Shown here piece by piece: positions 503 to 59,745 of a DNA stretch of 64,000 bases. This DNA comes from Octopus vulgaris. Its lineage: Eukaryota. A program made the translations under genes and the position numbers. Under the pieces are notes generated by a model. The model made no database searches. It was given only the letters and a program-made list of their open reading frames with translations, and was not told the origin of the DNA. Position 1 is the first letter of the stretch; every line of letters starts with the position of its first letter. Where the stretch lies: assembly GCA_951406725.2 (NCBI GenBank), contig OX597816.1:131688001-131752000 (forward strand), in the 5' to 3' direction.

Positions 503-583
503 TAACAGAGATACTTGGCTTTGCTCATGTCACATGGAATTTCAATTCCATGTGACATGGGCAAAAGTCGGGTATCTCTGTTA
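503..583. repeat. imperfect palindrome (~40-bp arms) beside (TA)n
   Basis: taacagagatac...catgtcacatggaatt-tc-aattccatgtgacatg...gtatctctgtta. Confidence 0.85.
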
Positions 584-1885: not shown

Positions 1886-2282
1886 CTAGCAGTATCAACC
1901 GGCGTTGCTCGGGTTTGTAAGGGAAATAACTATATAAGCATTTTTAGAGATGTAAAGTATAATAGCCATCTCAATATGGCTAACAACAAAGTGGTGGGTG
2001 TTACTGTAGCTTTTTACGTTCTGAGATAAAGTAATAAATTTTTAGAGAGTTACTTCCCTTATATATGCCAAAAATGCATTAAAAATGGGAAAAATTGATG
2101 GTAAATTATTTTTAAAATCGTAGACTCATCGTAGACGCGCGCTAATACCTAGAAGGGCTCGATATGAATCACGACTATAAGATATCCGGTTTTGGTTAAA
2201 CTGTACCGCAAAATGTGGGAGTAGTTAGGAATCTAAATCGTAGGAGACAGACAGCACACAACCTCACTTTTATATATAAAGA
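1886..2282 (-). mobile_element. non-autonomous Helitron
   Basis: Minus strand begins A|TCtttatatataaaa and ends with hairpin cccgagcaacgccgg then CTAG|T; no TSD; homologous to 3472-4344. Confidence 0.85.
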
Positions 2283-2286
2283 TATA

Positions 2287-2700
2287 TCTCTTATTATAAA
2301 AGGCAGATTTTATCTGCCTCCCTTTGGGAGTTATAGAAATCTACAATATAGGATTTCTTCAATTACAATTTACCTAGCAGTTTTAAGAGTACAATGCATC
2401 GCGTCATGCCAGGTCCAGTTTTTAAAATTTAAACTCCAATTAAGCAAAATTTACAGAAAACTCACATTCTGGTGTGTGTGTCAAATGCTTTTCTTAGTCT
2501 GGTTTACACCACACGCAAACGCACACACACAGTGGGCAACGAATAAAATGAAAGTAAATAGCGACAGAGTGATTTGAGGAAGACTAAAGTGAAAGTATTC
2601 TGTCTATGACGCTGATAGATACATGAGTAAAATGTATGGGAAGCTAAGAGCTAAGAGTGAGTGAAAATGTTCTTGGAAGAGAGTAATTAGTAATAAAGTA
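2287..2700 (+). mobile_element. Helitron-like 5' fragment (different family)
   Basis: A|TCtcttattataaaa start typical of Helitron 5' ends; no 3' CTAG hairpin before (CATA)n. Confidence 0.5.
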
Positions 2701-2745
2701 AACATACATACATACATACATACATACATACATACATACATACAT

Positions 2746-2776
<31 letters not shown>

Positions 2777-3033
2777 TACACACACACATACATACACACA
2801 CACATACATACATACACACATACACACATACATACATACATACATATACATACATACATACATATACATACATACATACACACACACACATACACACACA
2901 CACATTGAAGCTTGAGAACAATCAGATACATTTGCAACACATCTGTTGAAAATATTATTGTTCACACACATACATATACATATATACATACAGACAGACA
3001 GACAGATAGACACACACACACACACACACACAC
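2701..3033. repeat. compound (CATA)n/(CA)n/(CAGA)n microsatellite
   Basis: Directly visible. Confidence 0.95.
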
Positions 3034-3084
3034 ATGATCCAGCATGGCCACAACCTCAAGGCTGAAACATATAAAAGAATAACA

Positions 3085-3450
3085 GAATATAAATGTGTGC
3101 AAAGTACAAGAAATATTAATGCAGTATATGGGGATTGGACAATAAGCGTAAGGCAGTGTCAATGGTGGTTCCAGAAATCCCGAGCCATAAACTACAGCCT
3201 AGAAGACGAGCCTCATCCTGAAAGATCTGTAGAACTCGACAAGGACATCCTGAAAACCCTGGTGGAACAAAATATCATCGTAACTGTTGAGGAACTAGCA
3301 GAGAAGCTTGGATTTGGTCATTCAACCATTCATTGACACCTGTGTGCTATCGGAAAAGTCAGCAAATTGGGTCAATGGGTTCCTCACGAACTTTCCGAGT
3401 CTAATTGCATGCAGAGAGTGAATGTATGCTTTTCTTTGCTGTCATATCTC
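3085..3450 (+). pseudogene. mariner transposase N-terminal fragment, preceded by a SINE-A tail remnant (3034-3084)
   Basis: NINAVYG...QWWFQK...SLEDEP...TVEELAEKLG...stop...KLGQWVPHEL; WVPHEL is the mariner signature. Confidence 0.9.
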
Positions 3451-3471
3451 ACCACTACTGCGCTATGTATA

Positions 3472-4344
3472 TCTATATATATAAAACTGTAGTTGTGTGA
3501 GTGTCTGTCCCCTTCGATTTAGATTCCTAACTACTCCCACATTTTGCGGTACAGTTTAACCAAATTCGGGTAGCTTATAGTCGTGATTCATATCGAGCCC
3601 GTCTGAATATTAGCGCGCGTCTACGATGAGTCTACGATTTTAAAAATAATTTAACATCATTTTTTATTCCATTTTAATGCATAATTTTTCGTGTGTCGAT
3701 GGCGGCGGAGTTGGCGTCCACGCTCACACCTGCACCTGTGGGGAAGGGAGTGTAAGGAAATCAACGTCGTAATGCGTTGTCAAGGAGACCAGTGTTCTTT
3801 TAGAACAACGACTTCATGGCTTGAAGACACCAAAACAGAAATGGCTAAGAAAGCGTCTACGATGAGTCTACGATTTTAAAAATAATTTAACATCATTTTT
3901 TATTCCATTTTAATGCATAATTTTTCGTGTGTCGATGGCGGCGGAGTTGGCGTCCACGCTCACACCTGCACCTGTGGGGAAGGGAGTGTAAGGAAATCAA
4001 CGTCGTAATGCGTTGTCAAGGAGACCAGTGTTCTTTTAGAACAACGACTTCATGGCTTGAAGACACCAAAACAGAAATGGCTAAGAAAGCGTCTACATGA
4101 GTCTACGATTTAAAAAAAAATTTACCATCGTTTTTTTTCCATTTTAATGCATTTTTTCGCTATTATATAAGGGAAGTAACTCTCTAAAAATGTCTACGAT
4201 GAGTCAACGATTTTAAAAAAAATTTACCATCATATTTTTTCCATTTTTAATGCATTTTTTGCTATTTTTTGGCTATAACTCTCTAAAAATGCTTATATAG
4301 TTATTTCCCTTACAAACCCGAGCAACGCCGGGCGATACTGCTAG
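3472..4344 (+). mobile_element. non-autonomous Helitron with an internal 236-bp tandem duplication
   Basis: A|TCtatatatataaaa start; cccgagcaacgccggg hairpin and CTAG|T end; 3617-3852 repeated at 3853-4088. Confidence 0.88.
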
Positions 4345-4384: not shown

Positions 4385-4552
4385 TGCATATATATATATA
4401 TGTGAGATGATAGTTTCACTTTAATAGTTTCAGTATTAATAGCAAAACTATTAAACTGAAAGTATCTCACTTTACAATAAAGAGATGTGGGGAGACAAAC
4501 ACAGACACAACGACACACACATAAACATATACATATATATATTAATATATAT

Positions 4553-5847: not shown

Positions 5848-6097
5848 GGGTATGTTTATATATATGTATATACATATTTACATATATGTATACATACATA
5901 TGTATATTATAATGTATATATATATATATATATAAATATACTTCATATATATATATTATAATGTATATATATTTATATAATTTATATATATATATATATT
6001 ATTATAATGTATGTATATACATATATATAAACATACATATATATATATGTACATACACATACATATATGCAAACATACATACACACATAGATTCATA

Positions 6098-6950
6098 TGT
6101 TGTCTGATCAATAAGTATCCGGACTGTTGCCATAGCAACGAAGCTAAAGCACACAGAGTGAAGCTGCTCGGCAAAGATTAATCTTGAACTCTGTGGTGTC
6201 TTGCACGCTAAGTTTTAATGTTCTGGCTCACTTCCGTTGTTTACAGCAGTGCTTGGAGGGAAGCTGTGTAGTGTATGATTGTCACATTGACCATGACAAA
6301 GAAAGTTGAGCAGAGAGTCTTCATCAAATTTTGCCAATAGCTTGGCGATACCTGTTGAGAAGTCTATGCAAAGTTTTCAAAAAGTGTTCATCGTTATTGA
6401 CACAATCAAGATCTTGTGCAACTGGAAGCGGAGTGTCATTTTAGTCAGCTGAAAGCAGTTTTGGCATAAACTTGGCTGACACACATCTCATACCCAAATC
6501 TTCAATGGTAATTTACTGAACTGAACCATAACTGATCTGTATATCCTTTGATAACTCACAGATGGTGATTCGATGATTTCCCCTCACAGCTGCACATACA
6601 TCTGTGATGTTTTTCTCAGTTTTGCTGGTTGCAGGACTCACAGAATGTTCGTCAATATCGATATTTTTTGGGCCATCTTGGAAGCATCAGAACCATTTGT
6701 ACACTTGTGTGCAGCTCATACACTCCCATCCATGCACTTTCTGAGAAGTATCGCCATGACAATGCGATGATCACACACTGTATACCTTCTTTCCATGTAC
6801 TTCTGTAAACAGTGGAGGTGAGCTAGAATGTTAAAATTTGGTGCATATGCACAACAGAGTTCAAGGTCAATCTTTGCCAAGCAGTTTCACTCAGCATGCT
6901 TTAGCTTTGTTACTATAGCAACAGCCCAGATACTTTTTGATCAGATTTCA
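6098..6950. mobile_element. fold-back mariner derivative made of two 5' ends
   Basis: TA-flanked; ~200-bp diverged inverted arms; + strand MTKKVEQRVFIKFC; - strand QVYKWF..FQDG...RITICEL...LGMRCVSAKFMPKLL. Confidence 0.85.
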
Positions 6951-9035
6951 TATATGTATGTACATGCATATGTAGATTTGTTTATGTGCATGAAACAATT
7001 CTACCAGTTAAAAGCCAACATTGTATCAAAGAGTTACTCAGCCTCTTGTTAAAATATAGACTTAAATAATATGTATGAGACTGAAATGAAAACTGGGTGT
7101 CAATATCATGGACAAAAATCTTCTGGATAGTGCACCAGCATGGCCACAGTCTCTGTGACTAAAAATAGTAAAAAAAAAAACAGAAAGCAGTAAAAAGCAA
7201 AAGATTGTGTAAAGAAGAAGAACATGAGTATCAACTTATTTTTGTTAATACCACTGTAAAAAACCCCGATCGACTTTGAAGCTTGTTGCTATGACATCCA
7301 TCTTTCATTTCTAGTCACATTTGAGATAGCATCATGAATATAAGCTGTTGTGCTTAGTCAGTTGCACTCATTTGATGAAGTATATAGATTATGCGTTATT
7401 GGTTACCAAGTGCATTTGATCAAACTTCACACACCCTCCTATCTAAAAGCAACATTCAATACTGCCCTGGTCGGTCTCGCTCTGAGCATAAATTCTGATT
7501 ATGAATAATAAATGTTATTGATATTTTACTTAGTGATGACTAATAGTAATTTGTCTTGATTAACTTTACAATTAACAGTAAAAGCCATATTTTTGTTGCT
7601 GGCTTTGCTGAAATTTCTTTTTCATCTTTTTAATACTGCATGCTAAACAATATGTATAAAAAACAACAACAACAACAACAACAACAAAAACGAGCAAAAA
7701 TCTCCACAAAACAACTAGTTAAACTATTTGACCACTATTTAAAATGATATCACTGATTATCAAACTTTAGTTCACATGCATACACAATTACAAGCTAAAA
7801 TTCAAACACGCATACTCATACATACTCATACATAATCATACAAACATTGTAATATAAATTCTCTCTTTCTCTTATATATTTAGATAGGCAGGATATGTAA
7901 ATGGTTTAGGGAATGGAATATGTATTCAGCTATTATCAGTATTGTTACAGTCAATGACGTCTGTAAAGGAAACTCTTTAATATATAATGTATAATAACAT
8001 TGAGCTATTCTTGTTTATCATAATTTTTATTTTAATATATTTCCTTTTCTTTACTATAATAAAAGAGGGTATGTATGTTTTTTGTGAGTCTTTATGTCTG
8101 TGTGTTCATATATCTATGCATACATGCGTGTTCTTACAAATATTCAGCTTCTATGTTTGTCTGTCTGTCTGTATGTCTGTCTCGGTCTGTCTATATCTCT
8201 CTCTCTCTCACTGATTTAAGACTGTTTGGAGTGAAATTACATTAGATATCTTAAACATACCCTGATGAATAGGCAGAAACCATATGGAGTGTTCTGCTTA
8301 CTATAGAGACTGTTCTATTTATTACTTGGGAAGACAGAAAATTCAGCTTTCTGTTATATTTTAGTGAAGCATAAATCCACACAGACTGTGGTTAGTTTGG
8401 TAATGTCCTTACTAGCCTTGGTCTGGTCAGTTGATTTCATTTGGTGCAGATGGGAACATCTTAATAAGCTTTCTGTCCACAGTGAGAGGTAATTTAAAGG
8501 GTGAGAGCACAAAATATTTTATTTGAAATTCTGAAAAGAGTACTTGTTGAATCCAGATGTTTTACAATAAGACATTGTAAAACTGTAACAGGAAATTATA
8601 TATCTGAGAATGAGAGCAGAAAAACTTAATTTCCAGTAGACCAAATTTTAGTCATGAGATCAGTCTTTGGATTGTTGTTGTTTTGAGCAGTGTCTGTGTC
8701 ATGATATAAGTAGCAGTTGTGTATTTGTGCTGTTATGTCTCCTCCATTGAAGGATGATTTTGAAGTCTTTTCATGGCTTCAGTGCTTGTTTGATATGAGC
8801 TGTCTAGGTTATGTATGAATGACATTTGTATGTGCATCTAAAAATAGCTACAGAGGATGAAGTATGGTATTGTGAGCGAAGGAGCAAATGCTCTCAGAAG
8901 TGACAGACATTCATTTGGATGTACAGAATGAAGGTTATGAAAGGCATTAAGGGAACTTGGGTTAATTTAGAATTCATAGAACATGGGAAATGATGAAGGC
9001 AGTGCTTGTTTACAACTATTTCCATCACCTTTTAG

Positions 9036-19076: not shown

Positions 19077-19140
<64 letters not shown>

Positions 19141-19143
<3 letters not shown>

Positions 19144-19279
19144 AGTTGCAGCATGGAAGGTGTTTATAAGCCATTTAAAAACACACAAAAACCGTTAGAT
19201 TCACTTCAACATTTAAATTTAATTTGTCAAGGTATTTTTGTCGCTTTGAAATCGCAACCTCTTCAATGACAAAATTCCA
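19141..19279 (-). mobile_element. single arm of the Penelope-like family that forms the 22794-23060 palindrome
   Basis: cagttgcagcatggaaggtgtttataagccatttaa... aligns with 22794-22930; abuts (TA)n. Confidence 0.75.
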
Positions 19280-19283
19280 TATA

Positions 19284-19822
19284 CGAGGGTGAGTCAAAAA
19301 GTAATGCCATTTTGTTTAGGACAGATATAATTACCAACACAGGAACATATATCATACATCAAAATGAAGCTGGTCCCCTGTGGATCACATCCCTACTCCT
19401 CAACATAGTAATGGTTTCTCTCAATAGCAATGTTCCACCTTCGATTGAGAACATGTATCCCTGCCCCATAAAATTCTGTTCATTGTTCTATGAGCCACTT
19501 CTTCACTACAGTTTTCCCTTCCTCATCACTGGAATAATATTTGCCTCTCAAACCCTCTTTCATGGGGCCAAAGATGATAGTTTGAAGGTGAAAACTGTAG
19601 TGAAGAAATGGCTCAAATAACAGTCAACAGAATTTTACGGAGCAGGGATACATGCTCTCATTCGAAGGTGGAACATTGCTATTGAGAGAAATCGTGACTA
19701 TGTTGAGAAGTAGGGATGTGATCCACAGGGGACCAGCTTCATTTTGATGCATGATACATGTTCCCGTGTTGGTAATTATACCTGTCCTAAACAAAATGGC
19801 ATCACTTTTTGACCCACCCTTG
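19284..19822. mobile_element. fold-back mariner MITE made of two 3' ends
   Basis: TA TSD; ~240-bp inverted arms; each arm encodes VKTVVKKWL..STEFY.AGIHALIRRWNIAIERN.DYVEK*. Confidence 0.92.
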
Positions 19823-19940
19823 TATATATATATATATATATACACACTAATACATCTGTTTGTTGTCTACACCACCTGTCTTCGTCTTTTGTTGTTTTTT
19901 TTTGTGAATTCTCCATATATATATATATATATATATATAT

Positions 19941-20828
19941 TGATAAAACGGTAAGATAACAAAAGAAAGAAAGAGACCTCAATATTATGTAAATAGAGGA
20001 AATTTATCTATACAATATGTTACATTACTCGGTAGTCAAGATAAAACTCTGAGTTTCAGATGCCGAAGTGGAAATCCACAACACCATCTCTTCGGTTATC
20101 TGGCTATTTGAAAACGTTATGAAAAAATACCGTTAAAAATGAAGGGAAATTACTCTGTTATAACTCTGCTTTGCCTGCGTACTTATACATCGCTCGCATT
20201 TTTCGTCATAAAAATTATATAAAATACATAAAAATATATAAAAATATATAAAAAATATATAAAATCTTCTTGGGACATAACACAGAAAGCATGTTCTATC
20301 CGTTTTCTTTAGGGGACCAAAAACGTAACAGAAATTTAGTCACATGTGGGCATGATCCGAAAAGCTCTGTCCTTGTATTTAGACATGTGGTAGGGTCTAA
20401 GCTGCTTTTCCAGATAAGCCATCTCTGGAAAAGCAGCTTAGACCCTACCACATGTCTAAATACAAGGACAGAGCTTTTCGGATCATGCCCACATGTGACT
20501 AAATTTCTGTTACGTTTTTGGTCCCCTAAAGAAAACGGATAGAACATGCTTTCTGTGTTATGTCCCAAGAAGATTTTATATATTTTTTATATATTTTTAT
20601 ATATTTTTATGTATTTTATATAATTTTTATGACGAAAAATGCGGGCGATGTATAAGTACGCAGGCAAAGCAGAGTTATAACAGAGTAATTTCCCTTCATT
20701 TTTAACGGTATTTTTTCATAACGTTTTCAAATAGCCAGATAACCGAAGAGATGGTGTTGTGGATTTCCACTTCGGCATCTGAAACTCAGAGTTTTATCTT
20801 GACTACCGAGTAATGTAACATATTGTAT

Positions 20829-20833
<5 letters not shown>
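19941..20833. mobile_element. 5'-truncated Penelope-like element with inverted duplication (410-bp-arm palindrome) in (TA)n
   Basis: Arms 20005-20414 and 20424-20833, 9-nt loop, one mismatch seen (T20194/G20644); each arm encodes CLNTRTELFGSCPHVTKFLL...*, resembling the LNxRxELxxxCxHxxKF C-terminus of PLE GIY-YIG proteins. Confidence 0.8.
20732..20805 (+). ncRNA. type I hammerhead-ribozyme-like motif (variant core); mirrored on - strand at 20033-20106
   Basis: Stem I AGAUAA/UUAUCU, CCGAAGA, stem II GAUG..CAUC, U, GAAAC, near-palindromic stem III AAACUC-A-GAGUUU. Confidence 0.45.
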
Positions 20834-20873
<40 letters not shown>

Positions 20874-21621
20874 AATATATATGTTATGTATGTGTGTTAT
20901 ACATATATATATACATACTTATATACATACACACGCACACACAAGCACACACATACTCACACATATACACACATACATATATATATATATACACACACAC
21001 ATACATACACGTGTTCACATGCACACACACACACACACACTCACACATGTATAATGTTTTATTTGCTGAAACTAAATTCTATATCTTATTTTAAGCAAGG
21101 AAATTTATAGTACATTGTTCAAAGATAATTAAAATAAAAATTTCTATATAGGATATTTAAATTTTTTTCCTTTTCAACTACCCCCTGTTGACTTCTTCAA
21201 ATGTCATTACAGGTTTATTTAAACAGATACCATGTATTTTGTTACCGAAACTGTTGTTTTGAAAAGATAGAATATTCTTGAGAGCTTTTGCTTGGTGTTT
21301 ATTGTCCATTGTCATTGCCAAAGGAGCAGAAAGATTAAACAAATATCTCACAGCAACACAAGTTAAGCATTTATGCTATAGAAAGACTATGTCTTTATCT
21401 TCTTCATACAATAGTGTTCTTTATATATATACATGCATATAAACATACATGCTCAAACATATTTATATATGCATACACATCTTATATATATATGTTTTCA
21501 TATATATATATATATATATATACACATAATACATACGTATGAACATATGAATATTTGGGTAAGTATATATATACACACACATATATATACATATATACAT
21601 ATATATATACACACACACATA

Positions 21622-21656
<35 letters not shown>

Positions 21657-21682
21657 TATATATATATATATACACACACATA

Positions 21683-21717
<35 letters not shown>

Positions 21718-21721
21718 GTAA

Positions 21722-22020
21722 GGGTGTGTGTGGCCTAGTGGTTAAGGTACTACACTTATGAGCATGAGATTATGGGTTCAATTCCTTGACTGGGCAACTT
21801 GTTTTATTTTTAAGCAAAAATATTTCATCCCATGTTGCTCTGCAATCACTTCAACATCTGACATACTATGCACCTGTAAAGGAATGTGTCAATTTGTTAG
21901 AGGGAGCGAGCTTATGCACAGCACAAACATATGATTACTATAAACAACTGCCAAGGAGGTTATTTAGCTCGAAATTGCAGAATGGTCCTTCTTGGATTCA
22001 AGAAACTACCATTGGTACAT
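21722..22020 (+). mobile_element. SINE family C-type head with a different tail
   Basis: tggcctagtggttaagg A box, gggttcaattcc B box. Confidence 0.7.
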
Positions 22021-22036
22021 ATATATACATTGCATT

Positions 22037-22333
22037 AAGGATCGTGGGTAAGGCCAGAACAATGTGAAATAAATGCAAGGCAAAGCACAAGAAAACAAAT
22101 ATATGAATTAATGTAGACTTACCTTGCATTCAATATTTTGAGATTATAACCTTATTTTCCATAAATTAATGACTGTTGCTGCATGTCGGCAACATTCATT
22201 AATTTCTTGAAAATGGGATCATAACCCTGAAATATTGAATGCAATGTAAGTCTATATTAATTCATATATTTGTTTTTTTGTGATTTTCCTTGCATTTATT
22301 TTGCATTGTTCTGGCCTTACCCACAATTCTTTA
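22037..22333. repeat. diverged long palindrome (~145-bp arms), probably an older PLE fold-back
   Basis: gtgggtaaggccagaacaatg...caaatatatgaattaat...gttgc-loop-gcaac...attaattcatatatttg...cattgttctggccttacccac. Confidence 0.85.
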
Positions 22334-22399
22334 TATAATATAGTTTACACAGTGCTTAATGGTAATTACTCTATTATAATATAAATGTGTATATATATT

Positions 22400-22752
22400 G
22401 TTAGCATGCCAGACAAAATGCTTAGTCATAATTCATCTGTTTTCACATCTTCTGAATTCAAATTCCACCAAGGTTGACTGTGTCTTTCATCCTTTCAGAT
22501 TGTTAAAATAAGTATCAACCATGCACTGGGATCAATGTAGTTCAACTAGCATCCTCTCAAAAAATTTCAGGCCTTGTGCCTATAGTAGAAAGAATGAAGT
22601 GGTTGGAATCAGGCAGGACATCCAGCTGTAGAAACCATGCCAAATCAGATTGGAACCTGGTGCAGCTCCACAGCTTACCAGTTTTTAATCAAACTGTCTA
22701 ATCCATGGAAAATAGACATTAAATGATGATGATGATGATGATGATGATGATA
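22400..22752 (+). mobile_element. SINE family B (22400-22595) followed by a (GAT)n-tailed repeat
   Basis: gttagcatgccagacaaaatgcttag...ccttgtgcctatagtagaaag; then catccagctgtagaaacc...(gat)n. Confidence 0.8.
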
Positions 22753-22790
22753 ATCATGTGTGTGTATATGTATATATATATATATATATA

Positions 22791-23119
22791 AACCAATTGC
22801 AGCGTGGAAGGTGTTTATAAGCCATTTAAGAAACACACAAAAGCCGTTCGATTCACTCCAACATTTAAGTTTAATTTGTCAAAATATTTTCGTCGCTAAA
22901 ATCCGCGACCTGTTCACTGACAAAGTCCGTGCTGCAGTGAACAGGTCGCGGATTTTAGCGACGAAAATATTTTGACAAATTAAACTTAAATGTTGGAGTG
23001 AATCGAACGGCTTTTGTGTGTTTCTTAAATGGCTTATAAACACCTTCCATGCTGCAATTGTTTTCGTTTCAGCACACGATCTCAGATCAAATTACTTGCT
23101 ATGCGAGTACATCTCCGTA

Positions 23120-23120
<1 letters not shown>
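22791..23120. mobile_element. Penelope-like fold-back insertion (126-bp arms plus 60-bp extension) between (TA)n tracts
   Basis: Arms 22794-22919 and 22935-23060, 15-nt loop, one mismatch seen; hammerhead-like gtcgc..gcgac-gaaa-atatttt. Confidence 0.75.
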
Positions 23121-23157
<37 letters not shown>

Positions 23158-30429: not shown

Positions 30430-30844
30430 GTTAGTACGGTTAAAGGTTGGAATAACCTATGTTAATCCTGGACATACATATGCAAGCATATTATGCTCAT
30501 AGATTACAAGTAATGACGAAAATGAACAAATTTATCAAGAATCAAATTTAAAGTAAATAGAAAATGGAGAACTATTGATCAACAACAATTGACTTACATA
30601 ATTATTAATTTTTAATTCAATACAAATAGACTGTATCCCATCTAACAGCTGTTTCTGCTTCCAATGTTATATGGTATTGCCATTGATATTCTAAAAATAA
30701 TATTCATCATATTTGGTAATAAATCCAATCTGGATCATGGTGTTTCATCAGAGTGAAGAAAAATACATAAATAAAAGAAAAGAAAAGAAGAGTTTCGAGG
30801 GGAAAAGAAAAGGCTTAATATGTTTAAATCATATATAATTAATA
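30430..30844 (-). mobile_element. PLE-like pLTR remnant with expanded hammerhead-like motif
   Basis: Minus strand ctgatga...~90 nt...gaaacagctgtta (palindromic stem III). Confidence 0.45.
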
Positions 30845-31431
30845 TTTGTTGACATAAACCCTCTCTTTCAGGTATCCCACAAGAAAAAAATCCAGGGTAA
30901 TCAAGCCTGGCGAATGGGAAGGCCGTTCAAAGTAAACCTCACACATGGTTCCAGCAAGATGGGGCAATTGCTCATACTGCAAGAGAGACAAATGCAGTTG
31001 CTACGGCAGTGCTTTAGAGAGAGAATAATCTCCTGCTACAACAATGTCAATTGACCTTCATGTTCCCAGATTTCACTAGCCCAGATTTAAACTTGTGGGG
31101 TTACCTGAAAGAGAGGGTTTACATCAACAAATCAGAGCCCCTGGTGCAACTGAAGAAGAACATCAATAGAGAAAACAGAGAAGTGGAGTCTGAAACACTT
31201 GAGGGTGTTACGGTGCAAGTTTTGGTAAGAGCACAGGTATGCGAAGCTGAAAATGGCTGCTATTTTAGCGATGTCCTTTTTCATATGTGATGTAGAGGTG
31301 TTGCAAAATTTGACTTGTGAATATTAATTTCCATTATGCCCTTTATATTGTATCAAAATTTCATGCATTTATTTGTAAAGTTAAGTAGTTATTAAAAATT
31401 AAAACCCAACAGTGACTTTTGGGACACCCTG
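30845..31431 (+). mobile_element. Tc1/Tc3-like transposon 3' part with a short inverted copy
   Basis: WFQQDGAIAHTAR, SPDLNLWGYLKERVY; TIR ...ttttgggacaccctg|TA; 30845-30932 is an inverted, frame-shifted copy of the same ..YLKERVYVNK segment. Confidence 0.85.
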
Positions 31432-44505: not shown

Positions 44506-45937
44506 TATATGTCTACAAAATCATCTTTGTTATAAGATATTTCCAAGCAATTTTACAAATGAGATTTGGCTGAAATAAACTGAAATTTGTTGTGAGATAG
44601 GGCTTATTAATGTTCTTGAATAAAGCACTTTATTTCATGTTGCTCCAGTTTTCTCAGTTAATAATGAATACCAACCAAATACTGATGCAGTCCATTTCTG
44701 CTGTCATATCCTTGATGTTGCACAGGGGGACAAAGAGGGGAGGGGTCCTAGAGGCTCTCTATATCTGTTTATGATGACAGAGGCACTGAACACAATTAGC
44801 AGAAGCATAGTCCATGCAACCAGATGATACTCATTTGCATGTGACAGTTAAGGGTAGAGAGCAGTGTGAATTTGAAGAAACATCATGAGCAGAACAGAAC
44901 TGAAAAGGATGTTCTGAAATGAAGTTGATATTGCAACTAATTTCTTTTTCTTCTCATTTTATATTGTAGATAACCTGCTTATTAACATAGTTTTGTCATA
45001 CACTTCTTTTGTTGTTCTTCATTGGAAGTAATATTAAGTATTTCATTATTTTTCTTTAATGTTCATGATTAGTATTTCATAATCTCTCACTTATCTATGA
45101 CTCTTCAAAATGTTAATAATATATCAATAGGCACTTCAATCGTCATGGCATTATCTGAGGACATAAAAAAGTCTTTGATATTTTGTGAGCATCCTACCTT
45201 ACAGGATGTAATTTACTATGATATAATTTTCATTACACCACAATAAATGTCCATAATTTTTTTATTTCATAGCTTTTCTGTTGTATATGGCATTTGCTGA
45301 CCTTCTTTTATCTTTCTGAATCTGAAGACAATTGAAGGTTCAGTAGATGCCACTAGTTTAAAATGTATTCAAATACAGGAAGAAATATTAACAACTTATA
45401 TCATATTCAAAGAACACTAACTTTGCTGTTAAGTCTTAAGCTTTGGTTCATGATTAATCTTTAATGGTGGATCTGGTGGTGTAACTGTGTTTTAGTTTTT
45501 TTTCTTTGACAGCACAATTTATTGATGTTTGTTCAGTTCTCAAACTCTGAACTTCTATATTTTTCACTCTCAAATTAAATTAAATTAATTTCAAATTTAA
45601 TACAACTCTCATATCAAAACAACTGAGTTATGATTTAAATTATATAAAGTTAGATGAACTTTTATTTAAAACAAATGAAGGTCAATCTAAAATATATGTA
45701 ATTCATATTAAAATAATTAACGTGAAGGTGAAAAAATTTACCTTTGATTTATAATATTATATTTTGTTTAAAGTTATGAAATTTCTAGAATAAATTAATA
45801 TTTTTTTACAAGAGAAAATATATTATTGCTCATCATTTCTCGCATCATGATATATATAATTGTATAAATGAAACAACACAGGTTTAAAGGTTAAAGTAAC
45901 ATACAACTATTCCTTGTCTGTTAATATACATAGTTTA

Positions 45938-46200
45938 AAAGAGTAAAGACCCTTTTTGGTCATGAATGACCATGGGATTGCACCTAGAAAGTTACCCTCT
46001 GAGGCACAGGTCTGAGTAAGGTTGTTTATGGAAGACGAGCAGTCACCCATACATACCAGACTCCCCTCTCCACACCACTGATGTTATCCAAGGAAAGGCA
46101 AAGGCTGATACAACTTGGCACCAGTGATGTCGCAACTCATTTCTACAGCTGAGTGAACTGGAGCAACATGAAATAAAGTGTTTTGCTTAAGAACACAACG
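45938..46200 (-). mobile_element. SINE family C, 5'-truncated
   Basis: Collinear with 36050-36305. Confidence 0.85.
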
Positions 46201-57130: not shown

Positions 57131-57305
57131 TAACCCTTCATCATATATTGACTATAGAAAATAGTCTAATATTAGGGCATATAAACCACCATAATGATAA
57201 AGAAATGGACATGTATGCCTATTTTTTTCCTTTACAGGTTTTATATACCCAAATATTAGACTAATTTTTATAGTCAATATATAGTGAAGGTTTGTAATTC
57301 TATTT
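57131..57305. repeat. diverged palindrome (left tip at 56701-56725, displaced by the SINE)
   Basis: ccttca..atatattgactata.aaaatagtctaatatt.ggg..tataaacc / ggtttt.atatacccaaatattagactaattttt.atagtcaatatat..tgaagg. Confidence 0.8.
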
Positions 57306-58830: not shown

Positions 58831-59745
58831 TTATAATAACTATATTTATATATAAATATATATGTTCCATTTAAAGCCACTAAACCTAAACAGTTGTTTA
58901 TAAAAAACTGAGTCAATTTTAATGAATAGATAATTTTAGTCAAGAAAATATATTTATAAATTTTTAAACAAACCTGAAGGTTGGAAATTACAGAGAAGAG
59001 CGACACAATATATTTATACAATGTATTTATTTACACATATAAATAAAAAGATCTATGTGTGTCGCTCTCCTCCGTAATGTTCAATTCCCAGTGGTTGGGC
59101 CCATCTTTTTTCTGTCAATTGTTTAGTTTTAGTCACTTTAAATAGGGCATATATTATAAATAATATATAATTATAGTTACCATTAAAAAGGACTTATGTG
59201 TGTAGCTCTTCTCTGTAATTTACAGCTTTCAGGTTTGTTTAGAAATTTAAAAAATATATATTCTTGACTAAAATTATCTATATATTAAAATTGGCTGAAA
59301 TTGATGGGCAAGCTATGTGGATGAAATGGGTGCATATGGAGCAATGGAAGCATTAACATCATGTTCAGTTCCCAGTGGTTAAGCCCATCTTTTTTCTGTC
59401 AGTTGTTTAGGTTTAGTTGCTTTAAACGAAGCATATAATGGCAATCAACATGATTGATTGCTAGCTACTAAAGCCTTCTTTTTTTATTCTCTCTCCGTTT
59501 ATTTTCTTGTGTTCCTTTCTGTTGAAGAGCGTAGGCTCAAAACGTAAAAGACTTTCTCACTTTCCCCGAGCATTAAACTAATGCACATGTTTGTTGCTTA
59601 CATGCCTGACTTTGTCTTTTGTTTTTTTTGGTACTATTCCAAACATATGTTATTATAAATAATATACAATTATAGTTATAATTTAAAAGGACCTATGTGT
59701 GTCACTCTTCTCATAATTTACAGCCTCAAGGTTTATTTATAAATA
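58830..59745. mobile_element. inverted plus tandem arrangement of one AT-rich repeat, PLE-like architecture
   Basis: 58835-59010 is inverted relative to 59105-59297; 59050-59180 recurs at 59360-59438 and 59645-59735. Confidence 0.6.
59438..59645 (+). mobile_element. PLE-like pLTR fragment with hammerhead-like motif
   Basis: ctgttga-a-gagc-gtag-gctc-aaaac-gta. Confidence 0.5.

What the first reader, a model, noticed from the sequence alone, without database searches (positions are those of the whole stretch)
19141..23120. Hairpin hotspot: four long fold-backs of independent origin within 4 kb
Seen: 19284-19822, 20005-20833, 22037-22333 and 22794-23060, interleaved with (TA)n tracts. Established: long palindromes with short spacers are usually unstable, and their transcripts feed ADAR or Dicer. 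Inference: (TA)n-rich patches collect fold-back insertions and could form endo-siRNA or hyper-editing loci, a possible microsatellite-PLE-dsRNA system.
Basis: partly seen in the sequence, partly recalled or inferred. Interest (0 to 1): 0.7.

Follow-up and report, generated by a model that had tools for sequence, protein, structure and literature searches.

The report
Transposon fold-backs nested in TA microsatellites
Four real DNA hairpins sit in or beside runs of TA repeats: one is the doubled tail end of a mariner transposon, two are likely the doubled, inverted ends of Penelope-type retrotransposons, and one is likely an old miniature transposon, so this is likely an ordinary pile-up of jumping genes at a shared landing pad rather than a dedicated double-stranded-RNA locus.

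Summary
All four hairpins are real, at the stated coordinates. Arm mismatches: HP1 21/236, HP2 1/410, HP3 20/143, HP4 1/126.

HP1 is a mariner 3' end copied onto both sides, with TA duplications, as described for Rhodnius Rpmar17/49. HP2 is the 3' end of a Hydra-clade-like Penelope element (endonuclease C-terminus, hammerhead motif) set head-to-head in (TA)n, with a one-sided tail. HP4 has the same anatomy from a second, highly repeated family, without coding sequence. HP3 is an unassigned, old palindromic MITE-like element.

(TA)n targeting, inverted 5'-truncated copies and tails are published PLE traits. Public contigs show other fold-back joints in the HP1 and HP4 families. Local clustering is real (P 0.0005-0.016) but weakens once TA tracts are the units (0.009-0.18), and HP1 and HP2 share one nest.

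No evidence for a dsRNA function was obtained. The host is likely an octopus, and molluscs reportedly lack endo-siRNAs. Passive ADAR editing is plausible but untested.

One oddity: the HP4 family carries a hammerhead-like core with a G3:C8 swap, which my searches found in print only as an engineered mutant.

Verdict: new members of known kinds; interest 0.3.

The parts
19105..19140 (.). (TA)n tract, left edge of the nest
19140..19278 (-). solo 5'-truncated copy of the HP4 family, without tail; 87% to the HP4 arms; degenerate hammerhead-like motif with a U3.G8-type core
19284..19822 (.). HP1: mariner 3' end on both sides (3'-3' MITE-type fold-back); TA on each side; the left arm (minus strand) encodes the last ~60 residues of a mariner transposase, with one stop
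19823..19842 (.). (TA)10 remnant
19843..19915 (+). short fragment of a third repeat family ending in (TA)n; 80% to 59577-59629; likely another PLE-type 3' end (inferred, not tested)
19916..19940 (.). (TA)12 remnant
19941..20004 (-). HP2 one-sided tail (about 65 nt, on the left arm only)
20005..20833 (.). HP2: head-to-head inverted 3' end of a Hydra-clade-like Penelope element; arms 410 nt, 1 mismatch; 9-nt spacer 20415-20423
20299..20424 (-). last 42 codons of a GIY-YIG-type PLE endonuclease (LNxRxE, CPH, KFLL); mirrored on + in the right arm
20743..20798 (+). type I hammerhead-like motif (core with U4C; stem III of Hydra-clade layout); mirror copy at 20040-20095 on minus
20832..20871 (.). (TA)20 tract, right edge of the nest
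22037..22331 (.). HP3: old palindromic MITE-like element, arms 143 nt at 86%, 9-nt spacer; TTAA on the left, a one-off variant on the right; family unassigned
22771..22790 (.). (TA)10 tract left of HP4
22794..23060 (.). HP4: head-to-head inverted 3' end of a second, highly repeated PLE-type family; arms 126 nt, 1 mismatch; 15-nt spacer 22920-22934
22877..22917 (-). minimal type I hammerhead-like motif with G3:C8 core and palindromic helix III; in the right arm the 5' strand of stem I is lost at the joint
23061..23120 (+). HP4 one-sided tail (60 nt, on the right arm only)
23121..23157 (.). (TA)n tract right of HP4

Best explanation
The four hairpins are real and lie in or beside (TA)n tracts; HP1 is a doubled mariner 3' end, HP2 and HP4 are likely inverted 5'-truncated insertions of two Penelope-like retroelement families, and HP3 is likely an old palindromic MITE, all likely piled up over time because these elements favour TA targets. 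Proposed steps for HP2 and HP4: (1) the element's endonuclease nicks both strands of a (TA)n tract (shown in vitro for the anole PLE on AT-rich DNA; inferred here). (2) Each nicked strand primes reverse transcription on the same RNA, one at each of two start sites; this gives two cDNAs pointing towards each other and a tail on one arm only (two start sites shown for the anole PLE; the twin use is inferred, about 55% against about 35% for snap-back). (3) Both cDNAs stop early, near one place, and join through about 3 nt of self-complementary sequence, leaving a 9-15 nt spacer (the 3-bp closing stems are in the sequence; their role is inferred). (4) The product is flanked by (TA)n (shown). HP1 likely arose by a template switch in gap repair or a deletion between two inverted mariner copies, at a GAAG microhomology, and sits in a TA (shown). 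Arm mismatch (14%, 9%, 0.8%, 0.2%) suggests the order HP3, HP1, HP4, HP2. If transcribed, the young hairpins would be passive ADAR substrates; no selected function is needed.
For: HP2 protein: the 42-residue frame matched P0008 (E 9e-4 in 1.84 billion proteins; 19/41 identical). It ranked last of 7 hits; P0007 is a similar C-terminus, and five hits are repetitive proteins taken as chance. P0008 shows a weak GIY-YIG Pfam match (E 0.035, below cutoff). Its 3 longer relatives are 441-772 aa, with RT-like YRDD motifs visible in their sequences. Against the end of Hydra-1_Obim (supplement DNA, translated by eye) 19 of 36 residues are identical without gaps, including the CxH after the conserved E and N that defines Hydra ENs. 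Hammerheads: a descriptor found 3 hits in both strands of 64 kb, all in HP2 and HP4; the shuffle mean was 0.1 (30 shuffles), and 0 of 500 shuffles hit for each arm tested. HP2's helix III layout matches Hydra-clade hammerheads such as Penelope-3_HM. Published traits: 26 of 27 Hydra families are listed with (TA)n preference, and Penelope-13_HM carries an inverted 5'-truncated copy; inverted copy plus one-sided tail; both strands cut and extended, with two RT start sites framing the tail (PMC11167929, section 3). The solo copy at 19140 and HP4's left arm begin at the same place, while 185-228 contigs per DNA or unlabelled run (X1, X3, X4) carry tail-like letters there. HP1: the top 6 of 9 PDB hits are mariner transposases (SETMAR E 8e-4; Mos1), matched at their C-termini. 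Loose ends in runs X9 and X3 continue into the antisense of the mariner SPDLAPSDY motif (motif name recalled). The arms carry 12 and 9 private changes and 2 shared ones against the family majority. Other fold-backs: 6 of the 15 joints shown are opposite-strand joints, 3 in the HP4 family and 3 in the mariner, at points other than ours.
Against: No RT or full endonuclease lies in the window, so the PLE label for HP4 rests on structure and context only; five short motifs from HP2 and HP4 found no relevant match in the paper's Naiad/Chlamys/Hydra supplement. The tails (60-65 nt) are longer than the 30-40 bp described. Rfam gave no hit at gathering score, and no hammerhead family was among the 85 weak matches. 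HP2's core has U4C, and in minimum-energy folding its stem I does not form. HP3 has no second copy in the window and no assigned family. No contig listed spans the locus, so reads do not confirm the assembly of these hairpins. Clustering stays nominally significant on TA tracts when only the 4-5 longest hairpins are counted (P 0.009-0.037). Joints at 80% likeness with short sides can be repeat artefacts.
Confidence: 0.8

Rival explanations
1. Same elements, but HP2 and HP4 formed by snap-back: one cDNA stopped, folded on about 3 nt of self-complementarity and primed its own second strand; the endonuclease then trimmed the copy at the tail boundary.
For: Very short spacers (9 and 15 nt) closed by 3-bp stems, and near-identical arms. 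In HP2 a Q sits where homologues have E, exactly at the joint, which fits a 3-nt parental microhomology. The Penelope endonuclease recognises the tail region (PMC11167929).
Against: It needs a second step to explain why the untailed arm ends where ordinary solo copies start (19140 against 22790). The anole PLE extends both strands in vitro. Other family joints have offsets of 41-57 nt.
Confidence: 0.3
2. One reading: the patch is a selected dsRNA locus feeding Dicer (endo-siRNA) or ADAR (hyper-editing).
For: HP2 and HP4 would fold into 96-99% paired stems (-723 and -223 kcal/mol). Young repeats are the main ADAR targets in metazoans (PMC9989829). Local clustering P is 0.0005-0.016 under uniform placement.
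Against: No endo-siRNA pathway was found in 32 molluscs (PMC12479628; host inferred). The HP1 arms drift independently (12 and 9 private changes of 236), with no sign of kept pairing. The elements differ in kind and age. Fold-backs recur elsewhere in the two families tested.
Confidence: 0.07
3. HP2, and perhaps HP4, is an assembly or library fold-back artefact.
For: Arms 99.8% and 99.2% identical with tiny spacers. PLE inverted structures are known to trouble assemblies (PMC8557442). No read-level confirmation was obtained.
Against: The mirror symmetry stops at element boundaries: one arm has a tail, and the outer flanks are unrelated unique sequence. Each pair has a real mismatch. The spacer is in-frame parental coding sequence in HP2. 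The anatomy repeats in two families and matches the published one.
Confidence: 0.05
4. The hairpins formed after insertion, by replication template switching at the fragile (TA)n tracts, and not in the transposition reaction.
For: All four are in or beside TA runs, which can extrude cruciforms (established knowledge, recalled). Two unrelated classes of element show fold-backs here. HP1 has a microhomology joint.
Against: The duplicated segments are confined to element sequence, end at element-defined boundaries (TIRs; tail sites) and include no flank.
Confidence: 0.08

Closest known systems
Hydra clade of Penelope-like elements, e.g. Hydra-1_Obim (Octopus bimaculoides) and Penelope-13_HM (PMC8557442)
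   Same: C-terminal endonuclease ending with CxH after the conserved E and N; type I hammerhead just 3' of the ORF; (TA)n target; inverted 5'-truncated copy; one-sided tail. HP2's peptide is 19/36 identical to Hydra-1_Obim's end (by eye).
   Different: HP2 is another family (different 3' UTR and hammerhead stems). Only about 400 nt of the 3' end is present. The tail is about 65 nt, against 30-40. The core has U4C.
Minimal PLE hammerheads (PMC4209133) and the anole Poseidon element PAc (PMC11167929)
   Same: HP4 has a type I topology with a palindromic helix III (dimer-type), a bulged base before helix II and a tail framed by two fixed ends.
   Different: The core is G3:C8. The natural covariant reported in the passages I read is U3-A8 (PMC4209133, PMC3088659); G3:C8 appears as an engineered, partly active double mutant. 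The clade of the HP4 family is unknown.
Rearranged mariner lineages Rpmar49 and Rpmar17 of Rhodnius prolixus (PMC4678618); long-TIR Dromar MITEs (PMC4161770)
   Same: The 5' part is replaced by about 220-240 bp of the 3' part, giving long TIRs with transposase homology; breakpoints vary within one small region (joints).
   Different: HP1 is shorter (539 bp against about 950 for Rpmar17). Spread of this exact joint as a family is not shown. The Drosophila cases are 5'-5', not 3'-3'.
Hairpin-RNA endo-siRNA loci of Drosophila; inverted-Alu editing substrates (recalled)
   Same: A long, nearly perfect inverted repeat that would fold if transcribed.
   Different: No transcription is shown; the arms are transposon ends; molluscs reportedly lack the siRNA branch.

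Membership tests
Hydra-clade PLE (HP2) | C-terminal GIY-YIG endonuclease with CxxC / CxH around the conserved E and N | tested here: met
   The last 42 residues show LNxRxE and CPH and match P0008 and Hydra-1_Obim. The CxxC half lies beyond the truncation.
Hydra-clade PLE (HP2) | RT with RWK and DKT motifs, no CCHH, single ORF under 3 kb | not testable with these tools
   Not in the window; no genome held.
Hydra-clade PLE (HP2) | canonical hammerhead 3' of the ORF | tested here: inconclusive
   Topology and helix III match the Hydra-clade table, but the core has U4C, Rfam does not score it and stem I is absent from the minimum-energy fold.
Hydra-clade PLE (HP2) | insertion into (TA)n; 5' truncation with inverted copy; one-sided tail | tested here: met
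   the tail is longer than the published 30-40 bp
PLE of any clade (HP4) | RT and GIY-YIG ORF | not testable with these tools
   The arms hold no recognisable coding sequence; no match for short motifs in the Craig et al. supplement.
PLE of any clade (HP4) | hammerhead in the terminal repeat | tested here: inconclusive
   Topology met (fold z -3.7); the core is G3:C8, not C3:G8; activity untested.
PLE of any clade (HP4) | microsatellite target, dispersed truncated copies, optional tail, inverted copy | tested here: met
mariner-derived 3'-3' element (HP1) | TA on both sides and mariner transposase homology in the arms | tested here: met
mariner-derived 3'-3' element (HP1) | amplified as a MITE (two or more copies with the same breakpoint and different flanks) | tested here: inconclusive
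   Depth falls to about 540 at the joint in X1 and X3, from over 1e5 in the arms; the contigs there fit sense-strand parents aligned through the microhomology; nearby but different joints exist.
Kolobok-type MITE (HP3; label and features recalled) | TTAA duplication with purine-purine termini; multiple copies; autonomous partner | tested here: inconclusive
   TTAA on the left, a one-off variant on the right; no second copy in the window; not looked for elsewhere.
endo-siRNA / hairpin-RNA locus | locus transcribed and processed into phased 21-23 nt RNAs | not testable with these tools
   Only contigs are served; no small-RNA reads.
ADAR hyper-edited locus | RNA-specific A>G clusters against DNA of the same individual | not testable with these tools
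   The family-pooled contigs cannot resolve this locus.

The most novel reading that the evidence does not exclude
A highly repeated octopus Penelope-type family carries a naturally swapped, active G3:C8 hammerhead core, known in the papers I found only as an engineered rescue mutant. Such (TA)n-targeting elements routinely write near-perfect hairpins by priming both strands on one RNA. The genome would then hold thousands of dated fossils of the unsolved PLE insertion step, and a steady supply of ADAR substrates in a lineage known for RNA editing.
Probability: 0.25. Interest if true: 0.55.

Novelty: new member of a known kind. Interest (0 to 1): 0.3.

Why it matters
As it stands the locus is ordinary transposon debris, but unusually legible. 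Two young insertions show, side by side, the inverted copy, the 3-nt joint and the one-sided tail whose origin the PLE literature calls unresolved (PMC8557442, section 15; PMC11167929). A genome-wide census of such joints would test twin priming against snap-back without a bench assay. A natural G3:C8 hammerhead core would also mean that standard descriptors miss a large family. It would not make this patch a regulatory locus.

Tried and rejected
Whole-genome background: no genome is held.

Rfam: 0 hits at gathering score. The 85 sub-threshold matches are mostly miRNA models fitting any long stem or (TA)n, and were rejected.

Protein searches: word-index searches with the HP2 and HP1 peptides found nothing. 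Pfam did not score the HP1 or HP2 fragments or P0009/P0010. 5 of 7 phmmer hits (P0002-P0006) are repetitive proteins, dropped as chance. The single PDB hit is a designed repeat protein, rejected.

Host gene: 150 of 247 non-repetitive frames of 45 aa or more were scanned, with 0 Pfam hits at 1e-3. Short exons would be missed, so intron or intergenic status is open.

Expression: no RNA holder listed. In one search the run guessed to be RNA shows the same A>G count (10) as the DNA runs. This reflects the window copy differing from the family and says nothing on editing at this locus.

Assembly check: no listed contig spans the stretch laid.

Palindrome list: of the 12 inverted pairs used, 6058-6992 is a microsatellite pair and 44611-46195 an inverted pair of a dispersed repeat, so the '4 of 12' figure (P 0.16) is not relied on.

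Earlier scan findings: none returned.

Print searches: octopus + Penelope + palindrom + microsatellite, 0 papers. Natural G3:C8 core not found. The library holds open-licence papers only; subscription papers and bioRxiv supplements were not seen and may report it.
Full report
Observation. The four fold-backs exist at the stated coordinates. Arm comparisons give 21 mismatches of 236 for HP1, 1 of 410 for HP2, 20 of 143 for HP3 and 1 of 126 for HP4; the spacers are 73, 9, 9 and 15 nt. They are unrelated in sequence and are the only short-spacer palindromes with arms of 100 nt or more in the window. Three shorter ones lie elsewhere. The window is AT-rich, dense in microsatellites and dispersed repeats, and showed no host-gene Pfam hit in 150 of 247 frames scanned. 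The host is likely an octopus. This is inferred from the closeness of HP2's peptide to Hydra-1_Obim and from repeat sequences I recall; the run organisms are coded.

Is it a hotspot? With uniform placement, 4 of 4, 5 or 7 palindromes falling within this span has P 0.0005, 0.0025 or 0.016. TA tracts cluster here too (9 of 28, P 0.005), and 6 of 7 short-spacer palindromes in the window lie within 15 nt of a (TA)4+ run, against 10.9% of random intervals. Dropping palindromes on TA tracts gives P 0.009, 0.037 or 0.18 (all). HP1 and HP2 also share one nest: (TA)18, a solo element, TA, HP1, (TA)10, a fragment, (TA)12, HP2, (TA)20. Several of the tracts are therefore pieces of one array split by insertions. 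The figures are post hoc for one window, and no genome background was available. There is local enrichment, and TA targeting accounts for much of it.

HP1. The left arm read on the minus strand, with X at one stop, matches the C-termini of mariner transposases: the top 6 of 9 PDB hits are SETMAR (E 8e-4) and Mos1. All 4 hits for the 29-residue right-arm peptide are mariner too. The element has TA on both sides. Contig loose ends continue into the antisense of the SPDLAPSDY motif (name recalled), which places the joint at a GAAG microhomology. Against the family majority letters, the arms carry 12 and 9 private changes and 2 shared ones: one template, then independent drift. This is the 5'-replaced-by-3' rearrangement described for Rpmar49 and Rpmar17 (PMC4678618; passages and section 13 part 2). 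The Drosophila cases are the 5'-5' mirror (PMC4161770; passages). Three other opposite-strand joints lie in the same region of this mariner, as with Rpmar17's variable breakpoints. Whether our exact joint has spread is not shown.

HP2. The arms run head-to-head, with 3' ends outward. Next to the spacer are the last 42 codons of an ORF. Among 1.84 billion proteins it matched 7; five are repetitive chance hits, and two (P0007, P0008) are endonuclease-like C-termini. P0008 is 19/41 identical, and its three longer relatives show RT-like motifs, though Pfam does not name them. By eye, the peptide is 19 of 36 identical to the end of Hydra-1_Obim (supplement), including the CxH that marks Hydra endonucleases (PMC8557442, section 11). 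Downstream lies a type I hammerhead-like motif whose helix III layout matches the Hydra-clade table; its core has U4C, and Rfam does not score it. Only the left arm carries a tail of about 65 nt. 26 of 27 Hydra families are listed as inserting in (TA)n, and one Repbase consensus has an inverted 5'-truncated copy attached.

HP4. Same geometry, with a 60-nt tail on the right arm only. A solo copy at 19140-19278 (87%) begins at the same place as the untailed arm. The family is highly repeated: 8,856, 10,745, 5,791 and 968 contigs were laid on the 483-nt stretch, which includes HP1's arm, in four runs. Hundreds carry tail-like letters, and three opposite-strand joints occur at other points (6 of 15 joints shown are of that kind; 13 were not shown). 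The descriptor found a minimal hammerhead with palindromic helix III (fold z -3.7). Its 3 hits in 64 kb are all in HP2 and HP4, against 0.1 in shuffles. The core is GUGAACA, that is G3:C8. The loose-end consensus in X1, X3 and X4 (47, 42 and 37 contigs, agreement about 0.6) shows the same core, so it is not private to HP4. The solo copy has U3.G8 instead. In the passages I read, the natural covariant is U3-A8 (PMC4209133; PMC3088659), and G3:C8 is an engineered, partly active double mutant (PMC11167929; PMC3884650). Searches found no natural case; closed papers may hold one. No coding sequence is present, so membership in PLEs is inferred.

HP3. An 86% palindrome with a 9-nt spacer, TTAA on one side and a near match on the other; single in the window. 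It is likely an old palindromic MITE. A Kolobok-type label is recalled and unproven.

Mechanism. The anole PLE cuts and extends both target strands and starts reverse transcription at two sites that frame the tail (PMC11167929, section 3). The simplest reading of HP2 and HP4 is that both nicked strands of a (TA)n tract primed on one RNA, one at each site, and that the two short cDNAs joined through about 3 nt. Snap-back of a single cDNA predicts the same joint and is the main rival. The authors leave this step open (PMC8557442, section 15). Arm mismatch suggests a long series of arrivals: HP3, HP1, HP4, HP2. An artefact is unlikely, because the symmetry stops at element boundaries and HP2's spacer is in-frame coding sequence; reads did not confirm it, since only 19143-19625 was laid and no listed contig spans it.

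Function. Nothing obtained points to one. A survey of 32 molluscs reports no endo-siRNA pathway (PMC12479628; passages). Young repeats are the usual ADAR substrates (PMC9989829; passages), so editing would be expected if the locus is transcribed, as a by-product. The retrozyme preprint (10.64898/2026.07.22.740005; passages) added nothing specific.

Verdict. Observation confirmed; interpretation partly supported. These are new members of known kinds: a Hydra-like PLE end, a second PLE-type end, a mariner 3'-3' derivative and an old MITE, gathered at TA targets. Interest 0.3; the G3:C8 core and the readable insertion joints are what merit follow-up.

Noticed in passing
window 22877-22917 (-); family contigs: Hammerhead-like core with G3:C8 appears family-wide in three runs, while the solo copy at 19215-19278 (-) has U3.G8: two core types in one family.
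   Followed up: partly
window 59505-59640 and 19843-19915: A third repeat family ending in (TA)n; the 59.5-kb copy has a degenerate hammerhead-like stretch with a U3.G8-type core upstream (seen by eye; not hit by the descriptor).
   Followed up: no
window 2074-3682 and 3617-4291: Element with 213-bp inverted ends (90%) enclosing a mariner N-terminal fragment (3013-3333, Pfam HTH_48 E 4e-7); its end is reused in 236-bp and 102-bp tandem units.
   Followed up: no
window 503-583, 4409-4466, 57132-57293, 58911-59296, 30844-31132: Further short palindromic or TIR-bounded elements; the first two lie within 10 nt of (TA)n runs.
   Followed up: partly
window 23029-23120 (+): A 31-codon ATG-started frame runs through the end of HP4's right arm and its tail; it may be the start of the element's ORF repeated in the terminal repeat, as in the anole PLE. 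Too short to search.
   Followed up: no
window 19304-19551: 9 of 15 joints shown are internal skips of 66-233 nt in the mariner 3' end, so this family has many deletion derivatives.
   Followed up: no
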